A DNA stretch of 64,000 bases from Acidobacteriota bacterium (GTDB lineage Bacteria > Acidobacteriota > Aminicenantia > UBA2199). Numbering within the stretch: the first letter of the stretch is position 1; each line of letters opens with the position of its first letter. Shown here piece after piece: positions 1,857-59,918 of this stretch. Made by a program: the position numbers and the translations under genes. The notes below the pieces were generated by a model. The model made no database searches and was not told the DNA's origin. It worked only from the letters and a program-made list of their open reading frames with translations. The DNA is taken from contig JALOLA010000005.1 of assembly GCA_025456205.1 (NCBI GenBank), positions 5,971 to 69,970 on the forward strand, given 5' to 3'.

Positions 1857-2960
1857 ATGATCTCCGTCGGCGTCGTCATCCAGCGCTACGGCAAAGACGT
1901 GACCGGCGCCGCCGGGACCCTGGCCCGCAACGTGGCCGAGCGCTTGCGGAGACTGGGAGCGCGGACGACCGTTTTCACCACCTGCGCCAGGGACCCTCTC
2001 GCCTGGGGCAACGAGCACCCCAGCGGGGAATCGCTGTTGCAGGGGGTGCGCGTCAGGCGCTTCCCGACCGTTGGCGCCGGGCCGGATTCGCCGGACCTGG
2101 TGGCGGGGCTCGTCGCTGCCCAGCGGGAGATCGACCTCTTCCTTTTTTTCTCCTGCTCCGCGCCGGCCGCCCTGGAGGGGATCCCGGCGCTGAGCAAGCC
2201 GGTCATCCTCTTCCCCCTCGTCCAGGACGGGCTCCCCGCCTGCCCGCCGGCCACGGCCGGGGTCTGGATCCGCCCGCGCGCCCTTTTTTTCCTGACCGGA
2301 GCCGAGATGGACGTGGTGCAGCGGCAATTCGCGCCGCCGGGAAGGATGCGCCTGGTGCGCATCGGGGTGGAAACCCGTGCCGCCGTCGACGAGGCGCCCT
2401 TGCGCCGCCGCTTCCAGCTGATCGCGCCCTACCTGCTCTATGCCGGCCGCATCGAGCCCGGGCGGGGGCTGGAGGCGCTGTTCGACCATCATCGGGCCGT
2501 CCGCCAGGAGGCCTTTGTCGACCTGGTGCTGATCGGCGAGAAGCGCATGGACCTGCCCGCGTTCCAGGGGGTGAAATGCCTGGGCGTCCTGCGCGGGGAC
2601 GAGCGCTTGGCCGCCTTCCAGGGCGCCCTCCTTTCCGTGCAGCCTGCGGCGCGGGAGAGCCTCTCGCTCGCCACGCTCGAATCCTTCGCCGCGCGCACGC
2701 CGGCGCTGGTCGACCGCCGCTTCCCTGTCCTGCTGGAGCACGTCGAAGCCTCGAACGCCGGGCTGGCCTACGACGGCGTGGAGGAATTCCTGGCCGGGTT
2801 CAGGCGCATCCAGCGCCGCCCGGCGCTGCGGCAGCGGCTGGGCGAGAGAGGCCTGGAGCATGTGCAGCGCTATTACTCTTGGGAAACGGTGATGGGGGAG
2901 ATCCAGGCAGGAATAGCAGAAGTCTTGGAAAAAAAAAAGACGGCAGACGTTAGACGTTAG
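1857..2960 (+). CDS. Glycosyltransferase (GT-B fold, family 4-like)
   Basis: 367-aa ORF starting 4 nt after the previous GT. N-terminus VVIQRYGKDVTGAAGTLARNVAERL and C-terminal YAGRIEPGRGLEAL...ESLSLATLESFAARTPALV resemble GT4 enzymes. The last codons (DVRR*) lie inside heptamer repeat A. Confidence 0.7.
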   Translation: MISVGVVIQRYGKDVTGAAGTLARNVAERLRRLGARTTVFTTCARDPLAWGNEHPSGESLLQGVRVRRFPTVGAGPDSPDLVAGLVAAQREIDLFLFFSCSAPAALEGIPALSKPVILFPLVQDGLPACPPATAGVWIRPRALFFLTGAEMDVVQRQFAPPGRMRLVRIGVETRAAVDEAPLRRRFQLIAPYLLYAGRIEPGRGLEALFDHHRAVRQEAFVDLVLIGEKRMDLPAFQGVKCLGVLRGDERLAAFQGALLSVQPAARESLSLATLESFAARTPALVDRRFPVLLEHVEASNAGLAYDGVEEFLAGFRRIQRRPALRQRLGERGLEHVQRYYSWETVMGEIQAGIAEVLEKKKTADVRR

Positions 2961-3067
2961 TAGTTAGCAAGAGAGAGCGATCTTATTATTTTCGGATAGG
3001 AATCGGTAAAGGCTCAGTTAACGTCTTTTTTACTCTTGCTAACGTCTAATGTCTGACATCTAACGTC
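2946..3067. repeat. Heptamer-arm inverted repeat element A (compact copy)
   Basis: Left arm 2946..2973 is gacgtta gacgtta gtagtta gcaagag. The AT-rich centre holds core AGGAATCGGT at 2998..3007. Right arm 3033..3067 is ctcttgc taacgtc taatgtc tgacatc taacgtc, the reverse complement of the left units. It fills the gap between the convergent GT gene and rho. Confidence 0.85.
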
Positions 3068-3079
3068 TTCTTCGGGGTT

Positions 3080-4345
3080 TTACATCCCCTTTGACATCAT
3101 GTTGATGAACTCGGCGTTGGACTTGGTCTTGGAGAGCTTGTCCACCAGCAGTTCCATGGCCTCGACCTCGGACATCTGCGCCAGCACCTTGCGCAGTACC
3201 CAGATCTTGCTCAGCTCATCGCGCTCGATCAGCAGCTCTTCCTTGCGCGTGCCGGAGCGGAACAGGTCGATGGCCGGGAAGACGCGCTTGTCGGCGAGGC
3301 GGCGGTCGAGGTTGATCTCCATGTTGCCGGTGCCCTTGAATTCTTCGAAGATGACCTCATCCATGCGGCTGCCGGAATCGACGATGGCCGTGGCCAGGAT
3401 GGTCAGGCTGCCGCCGCCCTCGATGTTCCTGGCGGCGCCGAAGAACTTCTTGGGCTTGTTCAGGGCATTGGCGTCGATGCCGCCCGAGAGCACCTTGCCG
3501 GATGCCGGCGTGATGGCGTTATGGGCGCGGGCCAGGCGGGTGATCGAGTCGAGCAGGATGACCACGTCCTTGCCCATCTCCACCATGCGCTTGGCCTTCT
3601 CGAGCACGATGTCAGCCACCTTGGTGTGGCGCAGGGGGATCTCGTCGAAGGTGGAGGCGATGACCTCGCCCTTGACGTTGCGGCTCATGTCGGTGACTTC
3701 CTCGGGACGCTCGTCGATGAGCAGGACGATGAGGTTGACCTCCGGGTGATTGACCTCGATGGACTTGGCGATGCTCTGCAGGATCATGGTCTTGCCGGTG
3801 CGCGGGGCGGCCACGATCAGGCCGCGCTGCCCCTTGCCGATGGGGGTGAGCAGGTTCATCACCCGGCCGGACATGTTGTCCGTGCCGGTCTCGAGGTTGA
3901 TCTTCTCGTCGGGGTAGAGCGGCGTCAGCTTCTCGAAGCGGACGTTGCGCCGCTTCTCGTTGACCGTCTCGGGGTCCTCGTTGTTGACCGCCTCCACGCT
4001 CAGCAGGGCGAAGTACTTCTCCCCGGTCTTGGGCGGGCGCACCGAGCCCGACACCGTGTCGCCGGTGCGCAGGTCGAACTTGTTCACCTGGGAAGGGGAA
4101 ACGTAGATGTCCTCCGGGCTGGTCAGGTAGGCGTATTCCTGGAAGCGCAGGAAGCCGTAGCCCTCGCTGTGCACTTCGATGACGCCCTCGGCGAAGAGCT
4201 TGCCGCTGGCGCGGGCCTGGGCGTCCAGCACCTTGAAGAACAGGGAGTTCTTGTCGCTGACGTCCTTGTCATCGATCTCCATTTCCTTGACCAGTTTTTT
4301 CAGCTCCAGCGCTTTCATGGCTTGCAGGTCTTTCAATGAATACAT
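3080..4345 (-). CDS. rho: Transcription termination factor Rho
   Basis: [24 protein letters not shown] (Rho N-terminal domain), an RNA-binding OB region, Walker A AAPRTGKT, and the C-terminus [25 protein letters not shown]. Start is the internal ATG 4345, preceded by AGGAG. Confidence 0.95.
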
Positions 4346-4347
4346 GT

Positions 4348-4920
4348 TCACTCCTTGATGGCCTCTTTGATCCGCCGCCAAATCTCGCTTTTGCCCGCCG
4401 GTGATTTGATCGAGAAGGAAATGGCGAGCAGCCCGAATTTGTTTTTGAATTGCGCGATGAGGTCCCGTTGTTGCGAAAAGGAAATCTTATCACTCTTGGT
4501 CAGGATTGTCAAGATGGGGAAATTTTTTTCGACGATCTGGGCCAGCGTCTCCAGGTCGGGGGGCAGGAAGCCGTGCCGCGAGTCGATGAGCATGACGGCC
4601 AGCTTGACGTTCTCCACCCGGGCCAGGAAATCGGCGATGAGCTTGCGCACGCGGACGCTCTCGCCCTTGGACACCCGGGCGTAGCCGTAGCCGGGCAGAT
4701 CGGCGAAGACCAGCCTGCCGTCGACGCGGTAATAATTGACGCTCAGCGTCTTGCCGGGCATGGAGCTGGTCTTGGCCAGGCGCCGCTCCAGCAGCGCGTT
4801 GATCAGCGAGGACTTGCCCACGTTGGAGCGGCCGAAGAACAGCACCTTGGGGTGCGGGTCGGCCGGCAGCTGGCTGGCGTTGAAGAAAGTGCCGGCGAGT
4901 TCGGATCTTTTTATGTTCAT
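4348..4920 (-). CDS. engB: Ribosome-biogenesis GTPase EngB/YihA/YsxC
   Basis: 190 aa with G1 motif [14 protein letters not shown] and DLPGYGYA. Sits directly downstream of lon, as in Bacillus. Confidence 0.9.
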
Positions 4921-54909: not shown

Positions 54910-54924
54910 TGCCCGGCGAAATTC

Positions 54925-55098
54925 GTGACGCGTGACGCGTGACGCGTGACGCGGAAGAACGGGACTCGGCGTAGGGCGTAGGGCGTAAGACGTAAGGTGA
55001 AATTTCTCTTCACCCGTCTACCGTAAACCGTCAACCGTCAACCGATTCCGATTATTTCATATTCTCTTACTTCTTCCCTACGCCCTACGCCCCACGCC
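54925..55098. repeat. Heptamer repeat element F (three unit families; nested inverted arms)
   Basis: 54925..54952 is (gtgacgc)x4. 54968..55002 is ggcgtag ggcgtag ggcgtaa gacgtaa ggtgaaa. 55014..55048 is ccgtcta ccgtaaa ccgtcaa ccgtcaa ccgattc, containing the core on the reverse strand (ggaatcggt). 55078..55098 is ctacgcc ctacgcc ccacgcc and pairs with the ggcgtag arm. Sits between the convergent methyltransferase and symporter genes. Confidence 0.85.
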
Positions 55099-58007: not shown

Positions 58008-58430
58008 ATGCTCTGGAAGCTGATCACCCTTTTCGCCCTGGGCGTCGCCGAGCTCTGGGCCGCCGCCCCCGCCGGCGTGGCCATGGGCCTGGACCCCGTC
58101 CTGGTCTGCCTGGTCGCCGCCGCCGGCGCCGTCAGCGGCGGATCGGTCGTCGTCCTGCTCGGGGAGCGGGTGAAGGCCTGGCTGCAGAAGCGGAAAAAAC
58201 GCGAGCAGCTGGAGGCGAAGCGCGGGCTGCTCTGGCGCGTCTGGCGGCGCTACGGCGTCATCGGCTGGGGGCTGCTGGCGCCGCTGCTGGTCGGCTCGCC
58301 GCTGGGGGCCGCCTTCGGCCTGGTCCTGGGCGCGCCGCCAAGACGGCTCCTGCCCTGGCTGGCCGCGGGGTCGGTCCTGTGGAGCGTGGTTTTCTCGGTA
58401 CTGGCGGCGGTGGGGAAACAACTGCTATAG
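58008..58430 (+). CDS. Small membrane protein (small multidrug-export-like, tentative)
   Basis: 140 aa with four hydrophobic helices and a basic loop KRKKREQLEAKR. The family call is from memory only. Confidence 0.5.
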   Translation: MLWKLITLFALGVAELWAAAPAGVAMGLDPVLVCLVAAAGAVSGGSVVVLLGERVKAWLQKRKKREQLEAKRGLLWRVWRRYGVIGWGLLAPLLVGSPLGAAFGLVLGAPPRRLLPWLAAGSVLWSVVFSVLAAVGKQLL

Positions 58431-58977
58431 ATGTTAGACGTTAGACGTCAGTAGTCAGCAAGAAATTATAGGAATCGGTTTACGGTTGACGGTTGACGGT
58501 TTACGGGAAGAGATGAAGCAATAGTAAGACTAAAATTCCAAGCACCAAGCACCAAATTCCTAAAAAAGTGTTAGTGATAGTGATAGTGGTTGTGAAGAAA
58601 GGAACTCAGGGCAAAGGCATTCTCCTGGCGGGCATGCAGATCCGAATATCCATTTCCAAAACGAAGGCCCTTCCAATGCCTTTTCTGGGTCAATGGCATT
58701 TCTTACTTTAAGCTTTTTATTTTAAACTTAAACTTTTGCATTGGAAAGTCATCTTCCCTTAGCCCGCCGCCTTACGCTAAGTGCTTTTTCTTCACTTTTG
58801 CCTTTTTACTTTTGCCTTGTCTTCCTATAATCTACTGACTACTGACTACTGACTACTTCTTTTTCTTCTAACGTCGAACCCAAAACATGGGCATGGATTC
58901 TTGGCTTTGCTACCGTCCAACGTCTGGTTGCGGTTTTTCTTTTTCTTGCTAACGTCTAACGTCTATCGTCTAACGTC
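58430..58977. repeat. Heptamer repeat element G (large composite copy, about 550 bp, low GC)
   Basis: Left end 58430..58464 is gatgtta gacgtta gacgtca gtagtca gcaagaa. Core AGGAATCGGT is at 58470..58479. 58476..58510 is cggttta cggttga cggttga cggttta cgggaag. Further unit blocks lie at 58536..58560, 58568..58596, 58793..58825 and 58832..58859 (ctactga x3). Right end 58943..58977 is ttcttgc taacgtc taacgtc tatcgtc taacgtc. The ends are near-identical to element A. Confidence 0.85.
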
Positions 58978-58982
58978 TTCTT

Positions 58983-59681
58983 CTAATCGTATAACTCGTA
59001 GGGATGGCTCATGCCGAGAACCGTTCCGTCCATGGCGGCGACGACGATGTAGCCGCTGGGAAAGATCGTCATGCCGTCGGGGCTGGTGCCCACGGTGCGC
59101 CACTCGACGATGCCCCGGTCGGGGGGCACGTTCACGGCGATGGGGAAGTTGGCAAAATTGATCTGGTAGATCTTGAGGTTCTGCGTGACGTTGAAGCAGC
59201 GGAAATGGATGCTCATGGTCGAGCCGCGGCGATAGCGCTCGCCGGCGCGCGGCATATAGACCTCGATCTTGCTGGCGACCACGTGGAAGTTGGCGTTGCT
59301 CTCGTCGGCTGCGCGGCCGTTCTCGGAGACCACGCGCACCTTGTAGTCCCGGCCCAGCGCCAAGCTGGCGGGCACGTTCCAGGTCCAGCTCCATTTGCCG
59401 GCCACCGGTCCCGCGGGCGTGACCGCCGGATAGCTGCGCACGACCACGCCGTCCTTCTTGATCTGGACGGTCGGGCGGCCGATGTCGCCCATCTTCGTCC
59501 ATTGGATCGTCTGCTGGGCGCCGCGCAGCACCTGCTCGCCGCCATTGGGCGTGGCGACGGTGATGAGGACCCGCGGCGGGGCCAGCAGGGTCGTGTTTGG
59601 CTGCAGCTGCGGCGGGTCCTGGGCCCAGGCGCAAAGGAATGCCGCCAGCAGTATCGCGAAAAGGAAGGCGTGCTTTTTCAT
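58983..59681 (-). CDS. Secreted hypothetical protein, 232 aa (Ig-like beta-sandwich repeats likely)
   Basis: Internal ATG 59681 after GGAGG. Signal peptide MKKHAFLFAILLAAFLCAWA. Contains GGEQVLRGAQQTIQWTKMG...YKVRVVS. Confidence 0.55.
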   Translation of the reverse strand: MKKHAFLFAILLAAFLCAWAQDPPQLQPNTTLLAPPRVLITVATPNGGEQVLRGAQQTIQWTKMGDIGRPTVQIKKDGVVVRSYPAVTPAGPVAGKWSWTWNVPASLALGRDYKVRVVSENGRAADESNANFHVVASKIEVYMPRAGERYRRGSTMSIHFRCFNVTQNLKIYQINFANFPIAVNVPPDRGIVEWRTVGTSPDGMTIFPSGYIVVAAMDGTVLGMSHPYELYD

Positions 59682-59753
59682 GTTGACCTCCATCTTGTCT
59701 GCAGGATGAATACGATAACCGGGGGTTTTATCTCAGCAGATAAGTGAAAGTTT

Positions 59754-59918
59754 CAGTGACAGTGCCAGTGTCAGCAGGAAATGAAAGGAATCGGTTTACG
59801 GTGGACGGTTTACGGTGTACGGTAAGAACTTCTTACTTTTACCTTTTTACTTTTGCCTTTGTCTTTCTCTTCCCCTGTGCCTGATGCCAAGGATATTCCC
59901 ACCGTCCACCGTTGTCCA
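59754..59918. repeat. Heptamer repeat element H
   Basis: 59754..59777 is cagtgacagtgccagtgtcagcag. Core AGGAATCGGT is at 59786..59795. 59792..59826 is cggttta cggtgga cggttta cggtgta cggtaag. 59832..59870 is a tttgcct-type block. 59898..59918 is cccaccg tccaccg ttgtcca, the reverse complement of the cggt units. Confidence 0.8.

What the first reader, a model, noticed from the sequence alone, without database searches (positions are those of the whole stretch)
2946..3067. Elements A and G are sibling copies with near-identical termini and core but a fourfold size difference (MITE-like behaviour)
SEEN: the left ends are gacgtta gacgtta gtagtta gcaagag (2946) and gatgtta gacgtta gacgtca gtagtca gcaagaa (58430). 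The right ends are ctcttgc taacgtc taatgtc tgacatc taacgtc ttcttc (3033) and ttcttgc taacgtc taacgtc tatcgtc taacgtc ttcttc (58943). Both carry ...ATAGGAATCGGT... 25-50 nt inside the left end. A is about 120 bp; G is about 550 bp and contains extra heptamer blocks of other alphabets. INFERENCE: conserved terminal inverted repeats with a variable interior are the hallmark of non-autonomous mobile elements, or of elements that nest into one another. No transposase is present in the window.
Basis: partly seen in the sequence, partly recalled or inferred. Interest (0 to 1): 0.6.

Follow-up and report, generated by a model that had tools for sequence, protein, structure and literature searches.

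The report
Heptad-armed hairpin repeats behind genes
The two elements are real members of a genus-specific family of about 40 hairpin-forming repeats that sit just after stop codons; the larger one is a small one whose loop has filled with other repeat modules, and nothing marks either as a classical miniature transposon.

Summary
A (2934-3073) and G (58430-58982) share the same ends: an outer GAAGAAGA, tandem GAYRTYA heptads and an inner GCAAGAR, mirrored on the other side.

They are not special siblings. The genome has about 38 such loci and about 61 half-arms. A-to-G arm identity (29-30 of 35) is average for the family.

The shared "core" ATAGGAATCGGT appears to be the leader of a second module, GGAATCGGT(TKACGGT)n.

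G is a mosaic. At least five dispersed module families, each found at 15-40 other loci, lie inside its loop.

The tests for a miniature transposon (MITE) failed. I found no target-site duplication, no conserved interior, no transposase between or beside arms and no multicopy insertion sequence. The only IS200-like (RAYT) gene carries different repeats.

Elements start -15 to +30 nt from a stop codon and favour convergent gene pairs.

Across congeners the same sites are almost never empty, but the heptad family there often differs, even between sister species. The family is confined to one genus, with 0-69 pattern matches per genome.

My best reading is a two-way transcript-end hairpin with stops in all three frames. 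It would be copied by an unknown non-classical route and change by slippage, nesting and replacement. This is a new variant of the known heptamer-repeat phenomenon.

The parts
2929..2938 (.). A10 run. It reads as T10 on the minus strand directly after the hairpin, so it is a U-tract for the rho transcript.
   Evidence: Sequence read.
2939..2973 (+). Element A, 5' arm: four heptads (GACGGCA GACGTTA GACGTTA GTAGTTA) plus the inner clamp GCAAGAG. The glycosyltransferase stop codon TAG (2958-2960) is supplied by the heptads.
   Evidence: Pfam assignment of the flanking gene.
2974..3032 (.). Element A loop, 59 nt. It is unique apart from ATAGGAATCGGT at 2996-3007. That 12-mer matches the leader of the GGAATCGGT(TKACGGT)n module, here with no repeats behind it.
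3033..3073 (+). Element A, 3' arm: inner clamp CTCTTGC, four heptads (TAACGTC TAATGTC TGACATC TAACGTC) and outer TTCTTC. The rho stop codon (3080-3082, minus strand) lies 6 nt beyond.
58430..58464 (+). Element G, 5' arm: GATGTTA GACGTTA GACGTCA GTAGTCA plus clamp GCAAGAA. The stop TAG of the upstream small export-protein gene (58428-58430) overlaps the first heptad.
58465..58604 (+). Nested modules in the left part of G's loop:
- Leader ATAGGAATCGGT with a (TKACGGT)4 array, 58468-58506.
- Linker GAAGAGATGAAGCAATAGTAAGACTAAAATTCC.
- (CCAAGCA)2-3 array, 58538-58560.
- (AGTGAT)n array, 58567-58588.

Each recurs at 16-36 other loci.
58605..58775 (.). Centre of G. It has almost no other match in this genome (0-2 short hits). 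It is 89% identical to a spacer in congener G014. No Rfam match, and function is unknown.
58776..58942 (+). Nested modules in the right part of G's loop:
- CTTCACTTTTGCCTTTTTACTTTTGCC, at about 38 other loci.
- (CTACTGA)3-4 array, 58832-58857.
- A degenerate ACCGTCC/AACGTCT remnant, 58907-58925.
58943..58982 (+). Element G, 3' arm: clamp TTCTTGC, heptads TAACGTC TAACGTC TATCGTC TAACGTC, then TCTTC. It abuts the stop codon (58983-58985, minus strand) of a 236-aa secreted protein of unknown family.

Best explanation
A and G are two of about 38 loci in this genome of one palindromic repeat family that sits at gene 3' ends.

Architecture. Each element reads the same on both strands: [GAAGAAGA]-(GAYRTYA)2-15-GCAAGAR-loop-YTCTTGC-(TRAYRTC)n-[TCTTCTTC]. 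Only the arms are conserved. The loop can be any sequence, from about 30 nt to more than 1 kb.

Position. The element begins at or within about 30 nt of a stop codon, sometimes supplying the stop itself. Because 7 is not a multiple of 3, three heptads present TAG (5' arm) or TAA (3' arm) in every reading frame.

Function (inferred, not shown). I think it acts in RNA as a two-way device. It would stop any ribosome that runs past the gene end. It would also fold into a long hairpin followed by a pyrimidine or U tract, which ends or protects the transcript.

The size difference between A and G (shown). G is not a longer parent or a deletion relative of A. It is the same kind of hairpin whose loop has been filled by at least five other dispersed module families.

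Evolution (shown):
- Arms change by slippage of heptads.
- Loops drift or are invaded.
- Whole elements are replaced in place by other heptad families.

Open point. The family was amplified within one genus, so a copy process exists. It does not carry the marks of cut-and-paste transposition, and its agent is unknown.
For: Family and architecture:
- 60 arrays in 38 loci, always with the GCAAGAR clamp next to the loop.
- 61 half-arms.
- A-to-G arm identity is 29-30 of 35, the 62nd-78th percentile of all pairs. The nearest neighbours of each arm lie at other loci.

Hairpin:
- A folds at -55.2 kcal/mol on the plus strand and -46.6 on the minus strand, z = -6.6 and -6.9.
- G folds end to end, z = -3.9.

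Position:
- 41 of 58 arms follow a stop codon at -15 to +78 nt, mostly within 30 nt.
- 12 have the stop inside the array, at spacings of -1, -8 and -15.
- In tandem gene pairs the element is nearer the upstream stop in 9 of 9 cases that I read from the distances.
- Heptad arrays occupy 41% of convergent spacers, against 15% of tandem and 14% of divergent ones.
- T10 follows A on the rho strand.

Arms are coupled. By my count, at least 11 of 14 convergent loci carry both arms.

Nesting:
- G is a mosaic of modules that recur elsewhere.
- The GGAATCGGT leader precedes TKACGGT arrays at 58470, 59787 and 55049 (minus strand), and stands alone in A.
- Arms enclose a SnoaL gene at contig C102, and another gene in congener G002.

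Slippage and drift:
- Against the closest relative, G021, loops are nearly identical while heptad number differs, 9 against 4 units (locus 10).
- In more distant relatives the loops no longer align.

Replacement in place:
- The glycosyltransferase-rho spacer holds a heptad hairpin in all 20 congeners whose spacer was recovered. A 21st, G014, is cut off by a contig end but still shows the rho-side arm.
- At least 7 alphabets occur there. Sister pairs about 1.3% apart in rho carry different ones.
- At 10 further loci the same family is kept in roughly half of 28 comparisons. Another family or a REP sits there in most of the rest. One site is empty.
- The pair C80/C74 shows the same switch.

Amplification:
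- The family occurs in 1 genus of 185 sampled, with 0-69 pattern matches per congener.
- A second family ranges from 0 to 368.
Against: - No transcript 3' ends could be mapped. The only metatranscriptome run was too sparse.
- The simple terminator scan finds nothing, because the loops are far longer than 3-8 nt.
- Sense and antisense strands fold equally well in tandem spacers (25 against 24, p = 0.94). This gives no sign of RNA-level G-U selection on the transcribed strand.
- A 480-nt or 1-kb loop is implausible for a working terminator, so large composites such as G may be non-functional intermediates.
- The enrichment of stop-containing heptads is driven by a few large families. By distinct units it is only 22 of 46, against about 35% expected.
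- The copy mechanism is not identified. The genome is a MAG, 87% complete, in 124 contigs.
Confidence: 0.6

Rival explanations
1. True MITE. The arms are terminal inverted repeats recognised in trans by a transposase missing from this incomplete bin. A and G would be independent internal-deletion or cargo variants.
For: - Conserved inverted termini with variable interiors.
- Genus-restricted, strongly varying copy numbers suggest bursts.
- Two empty or near-empty orthologous sites were seen: the C25 locus in G021 and the G locus in G007.
- The MAG is only 87% complete.
Against: - No target-site duplication above control.
- Arm length varies from 2 to 15 units.
- Every paralogous copy looks to have a different interior.
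- No transposase lies between or beside arms, and there is no multicopy IS.
- Placement is tight against stop codons.
- Orthologous sites are almost always occupied by some heptad hairpin rather than empty.
Confidence: 0.13
2. REPIN-like element. The hairpin would be a doublet of repeats mobilised by a single-copy RAYT (IS200-like tyrosine transposase), as for REP/REPIN populations in proteobacteria.
For: - Extragenic hairpin doublets, a preference for gene 3' ends and species-specific population sizes all resemble REPINs (PMC3116915).
- A Y1_Tnp gene exists in the genome.
Against: - That gene is flanked, and interrupted, by different GC-rich palindromes (GGGCGGGTTTnAAACCCGCCCCTACR). These form their own small family of about 7-10 copies.
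- No heptad arms are near it.
- Only one Y1_Tnp match was found, although TRF lists 123 heptamer units in the genome.
Confidence: 0.07
3. DNA-level element. The heptad arrays would be protein-binding or cruciform-forming sites, for example recombination hot spots that allow exchange of the DNA, including genes, held between the arms. Transcript ends would be incidental.
For: - No strand asymmetry of folding.
- Arms enclose different genes in different species.
- The gene next to G is duplicated in G014 and absent from most congeners.
- A relic copy of a gene 3' end lies inside the spacer of G002.
Against: - Tight, oriented association with stop codons, and scarcity in divergent promoter spacers for this family.
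- No candidate binding protein or recombinase was identified.
Confidence: 0.12
4. Purely vertical structural spacers. Similar hairpins would arise locally by slippage and drift, with no copying between loci.
For: - Orthologous elements are inherited, and they change by heptad slippage (loci 10, 12 and 13).
- Sites are conserved as occupied.
Against: - A 20-nt signature, GACGTTAGACGTTAGCAAGA with up to 2 mismatches, is found 44 times here and never in the reversed control. It is limited to one genus.
- Sister species carry unrelated families at the same site.
Confidence: 0.03

Closest known systems
GGGAATC heptamer repeats of Xanthomonas (Rehm et al. 2015, PMC4692102)
   Same: - Tandem heptanucleotides over-represented in intergenic DNA.
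- 70-75 pairs per genome in convergent (inverted) orientation, able to form stem-loops.
- Repeat length varies between related species while the type of repeat is usually kept.
   Different: - One G-rich alphabet there, studied as a quadruplex former. Here there are many alphabets (123 canonical heptamer units by TRF).
- Here there are fixed clamps, placement against stop codons, nesting of families, and family switching at orthologous sites.
Cyanobacterial STRR heptanucleotide repeats (Calothrix PCC 7601; cited in PMC4692102. The name and further details are from my own knowledge.)
   Same: Several distinct tandem heptamers dispersed in intergenic regions of one genome, with function still unknown.
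   Different: - Different phylum.
- As far as I know, STRRs are not described as clamp-bounded palindromes abutting stop codons.
- I did not test cyanobacterial genomes here.
REP/REPIN elements mobilised by RAYT transposases (Bertels and Rainey 2011, PMC3116915)
   Same: - Short extragenic hairpin doublets.
- Dozens to hundreds of copies.
- Lineage-specific populations.
- Often lie behind genes.
   Different: The only RAYT here carries other REPs. The arms are tandem heptads of variable number rather than a fixed 20-25-nt REP.
Bacterial MITEs (for example Correia elements of Neisseria and Nezha of cyanobacteria; from my own knowledge)
   Same: Small, non-coding, with terminal inverted repeats, intergenic, and able to form RNA hairpins that affect transcripts.
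   Different: MITEs have target-site duplications, a family-typical length and interior, and a related transposase. None of these was found here.
TAACTGA direct repeats of Beggiatoaceae, Cyanobacteria and Bacteroidetes (MacGregor 2015, PMC4679880)
   Same: Abundant intergenic tandem heptamers with a fixed relation to neighbouring genes and an unexplained patchy distribution.
   Different: Those lie just upstream of start codons, are almost never inverted pairs, and use a single alphabet.
Intrinsic (bidirectional) transcription terminators
   Same: A hairpin directly after stop codons, enriched between convergent genes, followed by a T-rich or pyrimidine-rich tract (T10 after A on the rho strand).
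   Different: - Stems of 30-40 bp with periodic mismatches.
- Loops of 30-500 nt.
- Not recognised by the consensus scan.
- Dispersed sequence families rather than idiosyncratic stems.

Membership tests
MITE (non-autonomous DNA transposon) | Terminal inverted repeats shared by all copies | tested here: met
   Arms are shared by about 38 loci, with the clamp always next to the loop.
MITE (non-autonomous DNA transposon) | Target-site duplication flanking each copy | tested here: not met
   Mean longest flanking direct repeat is 0.48 nt, against 0.58 in permuted controls, over 27 paired loci. Element ends are fuzzy, so very short duplications cannot be excluded.
MITE (non-autonomous DNA transposon) | Family-typical length and a homologous interior | tested here: not met
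   Spacing between arms runs from about 30 nt to more than 1 kb. Interiors are dissimilar by eye between paralogous copies, and no all-against-all comparison was run. A's loop has no other genomic match except a 12-mer.
MITE (non-autonomous DNA transposon) | A related autonomous element: a transposase bounded by the same ends | tested here: not met
   - Genes enclosed by arm pairs are SnoaL-like, PAS-like or unknown.
- No multicopy IS was found.
- The MAG is 87% complete, so absence is not proven.
MITE (non-autonomous DNA transposon) | Empty sites in close relatives | tested here: not met
   About 2 of about 50 orthologous comparisons look empty. The rest hold the same or another heptad hairpin.
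REPIN / REP | A cognate single-copy RAYT gene flanked by the same repeat | tested here: not met
   The Y1_Tnp gene at C109 is flanked by GC-rich REPs, not heptads.
REPIN / REP | Extragenic inverted doublet forming a hairpin | tested here: met
Heptanucleotide tandem repeats (STRR-type, or the Xanthomonas type) | Tandem 7-nt units, dispersed, intergenic and over-represented compared with neighbouring periods | tested here: met
   520 period-7 arrays, against 95 of period 8. Periods 6 and 9 give 331 and 591 and are multiples of three, so probably coding periodicity. 27 of 444 longer arrays lie inside genes.
Heptanucleotide tandem repeats (STRR-type, or the Xanthomonas type) | Convergent inverted pairs of arrays | tested here: met
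   About 27 paired loci of this family, by my count. The same arrangement is reported for Xanthomonas.
Intrinsic terminator | Short GC-rich stem, 3-8-nt loop and a U-tract | tested here: not met
   The consensus scan finds none in A or G. A does have T10 after the stem on the rho strand.
Intrinsic terminator | Transcript 3' ends at the element | tested here: inconclusive
   The metatranscriptome run X41 covers only part of rho at depth 1-3.

The most novel reading that the evidence does not exclude
The heptad hairpins could be a structure-defined class of gene-end cassette.
- A slot directly behind the stop codon is kept occupied, while the family that fills it turns over even between sister species.
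- New families would enter by landing in or beside resident hairpins, giving composites such as G.
- The loops would serve as landing pads for other modules and for whole accessory genes.
- The 7-nt period would be selected because it presents a stop codon in all three frames.

This would be a copy-and-replace system without transposon hallmarks, driven by an enzyme not yet recognised.
Probability: 0.2. Interest if true: 0.75.

Novelty: new variant of a known kind. Interest (0 to 1): 0.45.

Why it matters
Tandem heptamer repeats have been noted in cyanobacteria, Xanthomonas and Beggiatoa for decades without an accepted function or origin.

This lineage offers an unusually readable version:
- Many families share one grammar: clamp, heptads, clamp.
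- They have a fixed relation to stop codons.
- About 25 related genomes are available, in which the same sites can be followed.

The site is conserved while its occupant is swapped, and large elements are small ones with invaded loops. Together these narrow the possible mechanisms. They also give concrete test objects, for example element A between the glycosyltransferase gene and rho, for termination and all-frame stop assays.

For annotation, it warns against calling such repeats MITEs on the strength of inverted ends alone.

Tried and rejected
- Laying metagenome contigs of four DNA runs on A gave only fragments and cross-mapping from other family members, with no usable insertion polymorphism.
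- The only RNA run with a usable share of the sampled words (0.16) was too sparse to see 3' ends.
- Rfam gave no match in or around G.
- The consensus terminator and promoter scan found nothing relevant.
- Comparing fold energy of sense and antisense strands in tandem spacers showed no asymmetry.
- The search for flanking direct repeats showed no signal.
- Self-BLAST for insertion sequences found only contig pairs 72-93% identical. The longest, at 81-92%, look like a second related population in the bin.
- I considered that each arm is an independent tag after a stop codon, so that inverted pairs arise only where genes converge. I rejected this as the main rule. Complete pairs also follow single genes in tandem spacers, and arms are paired far more often than independent placement allows. 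Solo arms and mixed pairs do exist, though.
- I considered that A's loop is orthologous to the loops of G003 and G002. The right flank aligns, but the loop does not align convincingly.
- I looked for a polarity in which arm carries the GTRGTYA variant. By eye there was no consistent rule.
Full report
**Setting.** The window is contig C47:5971-69970 of a 2.59-Mb, 124-contig, 63% G+C metagenome-assembled genome that is 87% complete. The best named match to its Rho protein is a Candidatus Aminicenantes bacterium at 71% identity, followed by Acidobacteria. This agrees with the label given in earlier notes of this scan.

**Observation.**
- Element A lies between a group-1 glycosyltransferase gene (1857-2960, plus strand) and rho (3080-4351, minus strand).
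- Element G lies between a small export-protein gene (58008-58430, plus strand) and a 236-aa secreted protein of unknown family (58983-59693, minus strand). Both spacers are therefore between convergent genes.
- The arms are inverted repeats: 40 nt at 80% complementarity in A, and 37 nt at 84% in G with 476 nt between them.
- GACGTTAGACGTTAG with up to two mismatches occurs 11 times in the window, all in A and G. Shuffles give 0.01.
- The 12-mer ATAGGAATCGGT is exact only in A and G in the whole genome.
- A folds into one long hairpin on either strand (-55.2 and -46.6 kcal/mol, z about -6.6 and -6.9). G folds end to end with z = -3.9.

**The family.** The genome has 520 period-7 tandem arrays, against 95 of period 8, with 123 canonical units.
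- The GACGTTA type forms 60 arrays in 38 loci.
- All share one grammar: often an outer GAAGAAGA, then 2-15 units of GAYRTYA, then the inner clamp GCAAGAR followed by purines, then a loop, then the mirror image.
- The clamp is always on the loop side. The reverse arrangement never occurs.
- Between paralogous copies the loops look unrelated and range from about 30 to about 130 nt in simple elements.
- Over 61 half-arms, pairwise identity across 35 nt averages 27.7. A-left against G-left scores 29 and A-right against G-right scores 30, the 62nd-78th percentile. The nearest neighbour of each of the four arms is at another locus.
- A and G are therefore ordinary members, not a special sibling pair.

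**The shared "core".** GGAATCGGT followed by a (TKACGGT)n array occurs three times in the genome, all in this window: at 58470 in G, at 59787, and on the minus strand at 55049. A carries the same leader with no repeats behind it.
- In each case the leader sits just inside the purine clamp of another array type: GACGTTA, CAGTGAC or CGTAGGG.
- The 12-mer is thus the edge of a second module family that tends to lie inside other arms.
- At the glycosyltransferase-rho site, many congeners carry exactly this ACGGT-type hairpin, or a remnant of it next to rho. A's copy may therefore be a relic of an older occupant. That last step is inference.

**Why G is large.** A BLAST of G against the genome shows that everything except about 58605-58775 and about 58860-58925 consists of modules found elsewhere:
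- the two outer arms;
- a compound module, (TKACGGT)n - GAAGAGA..CAATAGTAAGACTAAAATTCC - (AAGCACC)n, that recurs over 90-120 nt at 10 or more loci;
- an AGTGAT array;
- a CACTTTT/GCCTTTT block at about 38 loci;
- a CTACTGA array.

The left half of G holds left-type halves, and the right half holds right-type halves of partly different families. G is a stack, not a set of perfect concentric palindromes.

Arms of the same family also enclose about 1 kb with a SnoaL-like gene at contig C102. In congener G002 they enclose a different gene of about 2 kb, where this genome has a 184-aa gene. The fourfold size difference is thus part of a continuum produced by material entering the loop. It does not reflect deletion from an autonomous parent.

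**Transposon tests.**
- Flanking direct repeats are no longer than in permuted controls (0.48 against 0.58 nt, 27 loci).
- No gene between or beside arms is a transposase.
- Self-BLAST finds no multicopy insertion sequence. It finds only contig pairs 72-93% identical, and the longest (81-92%) look like a second related population in the bin.
- The single Y1 (IS200-like, RAYT-type) transposase gene at C109 is flanked and interrupted by GC-rich palindromes of the form GGGCGGGTTTnAAACCCGCCCCTACR. These make up a separate family of about 7-10 copies.

**Position relative to genes.** I used my own codon-usage gene calls (2,241 genes, 87% coding).
- 41 of 58 arms directly follow a stop codon at -15 to +78 nt, mostly within 30 nt.
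- In 12 arms the stop is inside the array, at spacings of -1, -8 and -15. The heptads themselves supply TAG.
- The glycosyltransferase here ends ...KKKTADVRR*, reading into the arm. Orthologues without this family end ...LEIKK*.
- Arrays fall in 20 convergent, 34 tandem and 3 divergent spacers. In tandem spacers the element was nearer the upstream stop in all 9 cases I read from the distances.
- Over all families, heptad arrays occupy 41% of convergent spacers, 15% of tandem and 14% of divergent.
- Arms are coupled. By my count at least 11 of 14 convergent loci carry both, far beyond independent placement.

**Comparison with relatives.** The 20-nt signature GACGTTAGACGTTAGCAAGA (up to 2 mismatches) occurs in 13 of 25 genomes of the genus, with 0-69 matches per genome. 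It occurs in none of 16 genomes from other genera of the class. With up to 1 mismatch it occurs in 1 genus of 185 sampled across the phylum. A second family, (CGTGACG)n, ranges from 0 to 368.

At the glycosyltransferase-rho site, 20 of 21 congeners yielded the whole spacer, and every one holds a heptad hairpin. The 21st, G014, is cut off by a contig end but still shows the rho-side arm. The alphabets are:

| Alphabet at the site | Genomes |
|---|---|
| GACGTTA | G000, G003, G002, G020 |
| AGTGAAA | three genomes |
| GTGACGC | one genome |
| AGTGATT | three genomes |
| ACGGT type | six genomes |
| AGCACCA/AAATTCC | three genomes |
| AGAGGGA | one genome |

- On a rho tree, the sister pairs G010/G015 and G005/G007, about 1.3% apart, carry different families.
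- The breakpoints lie at, or a few codons inside, the gene ends.
- At ten further family loci compared with G003, G002, G021 and G022, roughly half of 28 comparisons keep the family. Most of the rest show another heptad family or a REP. One site (the C25 locus in G021) is empty.
- With the closest relative the loops are nearly identical but heptad numbers differ, for example 9 against 4 units.
- With more distant relatives only arms and flanks align.
- At the G locus, G014 shares the left arm and several inner modules. G001 has a 95-nt spacer with only AGTGRT words. G007 has about 70 nt without heptads.
- Two related contigs within the bin (C80 and C74) again show GACGTTA against AGTGAAA at one site.

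**Reading.**
- Flanks show no insertion signature, and relatives share the loci.
- The elements are nevertheless not merely vertical, because the occupant of a conserved slot is often exchanged and family sizes swing widely.
- The best-supported picture is a palindromic gene-end element whose arms are the conserved, copied part. Loops are free to drift and to receive other modules, and turnover proceeds through composite stages such as G.

I infer the function from position, symmetry and folding: a two-way transcript-end hairpin, which in this family also carries stop codons in every frame on both strands.
- Across all families, arrays starting 8-40 nt after a stop carry a stop trinucleotide on the sense strand in 72 of 127 cases, against 14 of 127 antisense. 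Composition-matched shuffles give 35%.
- This is driven by a few large families. By distinct units it is 22 of 46.
- Against an RNA-only view, sense and antisense strands fold equally well. Canonical terminator criteria are not met, and no 3'-end data could be obtained.

**Known relatives.**
- The nearest published parallel is the GGGAATC heptamer repeat of Xanthomonas, including 70-75 convergent inverted pairs per genome (PMC4692102).
- Others are the heptanucleotide repeats of Calothrix cited there, the TAACTGA repeats of Beggiatoaceae (PMC4679880), and REPINs in behaviour (PMC3116915).
- Earlier agents of this scan described the general phenomenon in this genome.
- This report adds the family-level test of the A/G claim, the failed transposon tests, the dissection of G, and the survey of orthologous sites showing slot conservation with family replacement.

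Noticed in passing
genome contig C109:7700-8500 (outside the window): A 178-aa IS200-like (RAYT-type) transposase gene is flanked, and apparently interrupted, by GC-rich palindromes GGGCGGGTTTnAAACCCGCCCCTACR. About 7-10 such REPs are in the genome. The same REP type sits in some relatives' spacers (G015 at the rho site; G002, G021 and G022 at the C67 locus).
   Followed up: partly
whole genome; for example window 54924-54953 and 2946-2966: Heptad arrays lying 8-40 nt after a stop codon contain a stop trinucleotide on the sense strand in 57% of cases, against 11% on the antisense strand (35% expected from composition). With period 7, three units block all three frames. The effect is driven by a few large families.
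   Followed up: partly
L015 (congener G002), spacer between glycosyltransferase and rho: A relic second copy of the glycosyltransferase 3' end, about 60 nt, lies inside the spacer. It sits behind a first GACGTYA half-element and before a complete hairpin. This suggests that a gene end and its element were brought in together by recombination.
   Followed up: no
genome contigs C89/C8, C60/C73, C80/C74, C3/C35, C17/C55: Several contig pairs are 81-92% identical over 1-3.6 kb. The bin probably mixes two related populations. This matters for any copy-number statement from this MAG.
   Followed up: no
window 58983-59693 and flanks; L043/L051 (G014): The 236-aa secreted-protein gene beside G is flanked on both sides by composite heptad spacers. 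It is tandemly duplicated in G014 and was found in only 3 of 24 congeners. Spacer modules are distributed differently around it in G014.
   Followed up: partly
window 58605-58775: The centre of G has almost no other match in this genome, yet it is 89% identical to a spacer in G014. It contains a small AATGCC/GGCATT hairpin. A weak promoter-like match sits on the minus strand at 58747-58719. There is no Rfam match.
   Followed up: partly
window 58476-58567; genome C71:11269-11385, C70:9377-9482 and at least 8 more: A compound module, (TKACGGT)n - GAAGAGA..CAATAGTAAGACTAAAATTCC - (AAGCACC)n, recurs over 90-120 nt at 72-80% identity. Its non-heptad linker is also present in G002 spacers. Some families therefore do have a conserved unique core.
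   Followed up: no
genome C114:7276-7468 and C124:23793-23972: Whole half-elements (arm, clamp and the first 15-35 nt of loop) are tandemly duplicated two or three times, with periods of 36 and 56 nt. G014 has three 110-nt tandem copies of a multi-module block at the G locus.
   Followed up: no
L088 (congener G003, C145): Part of the spacer between two GACGTTA hairpins reads as a run of N (withheld or masked), so that locus could not be compared.
   Followed up: no
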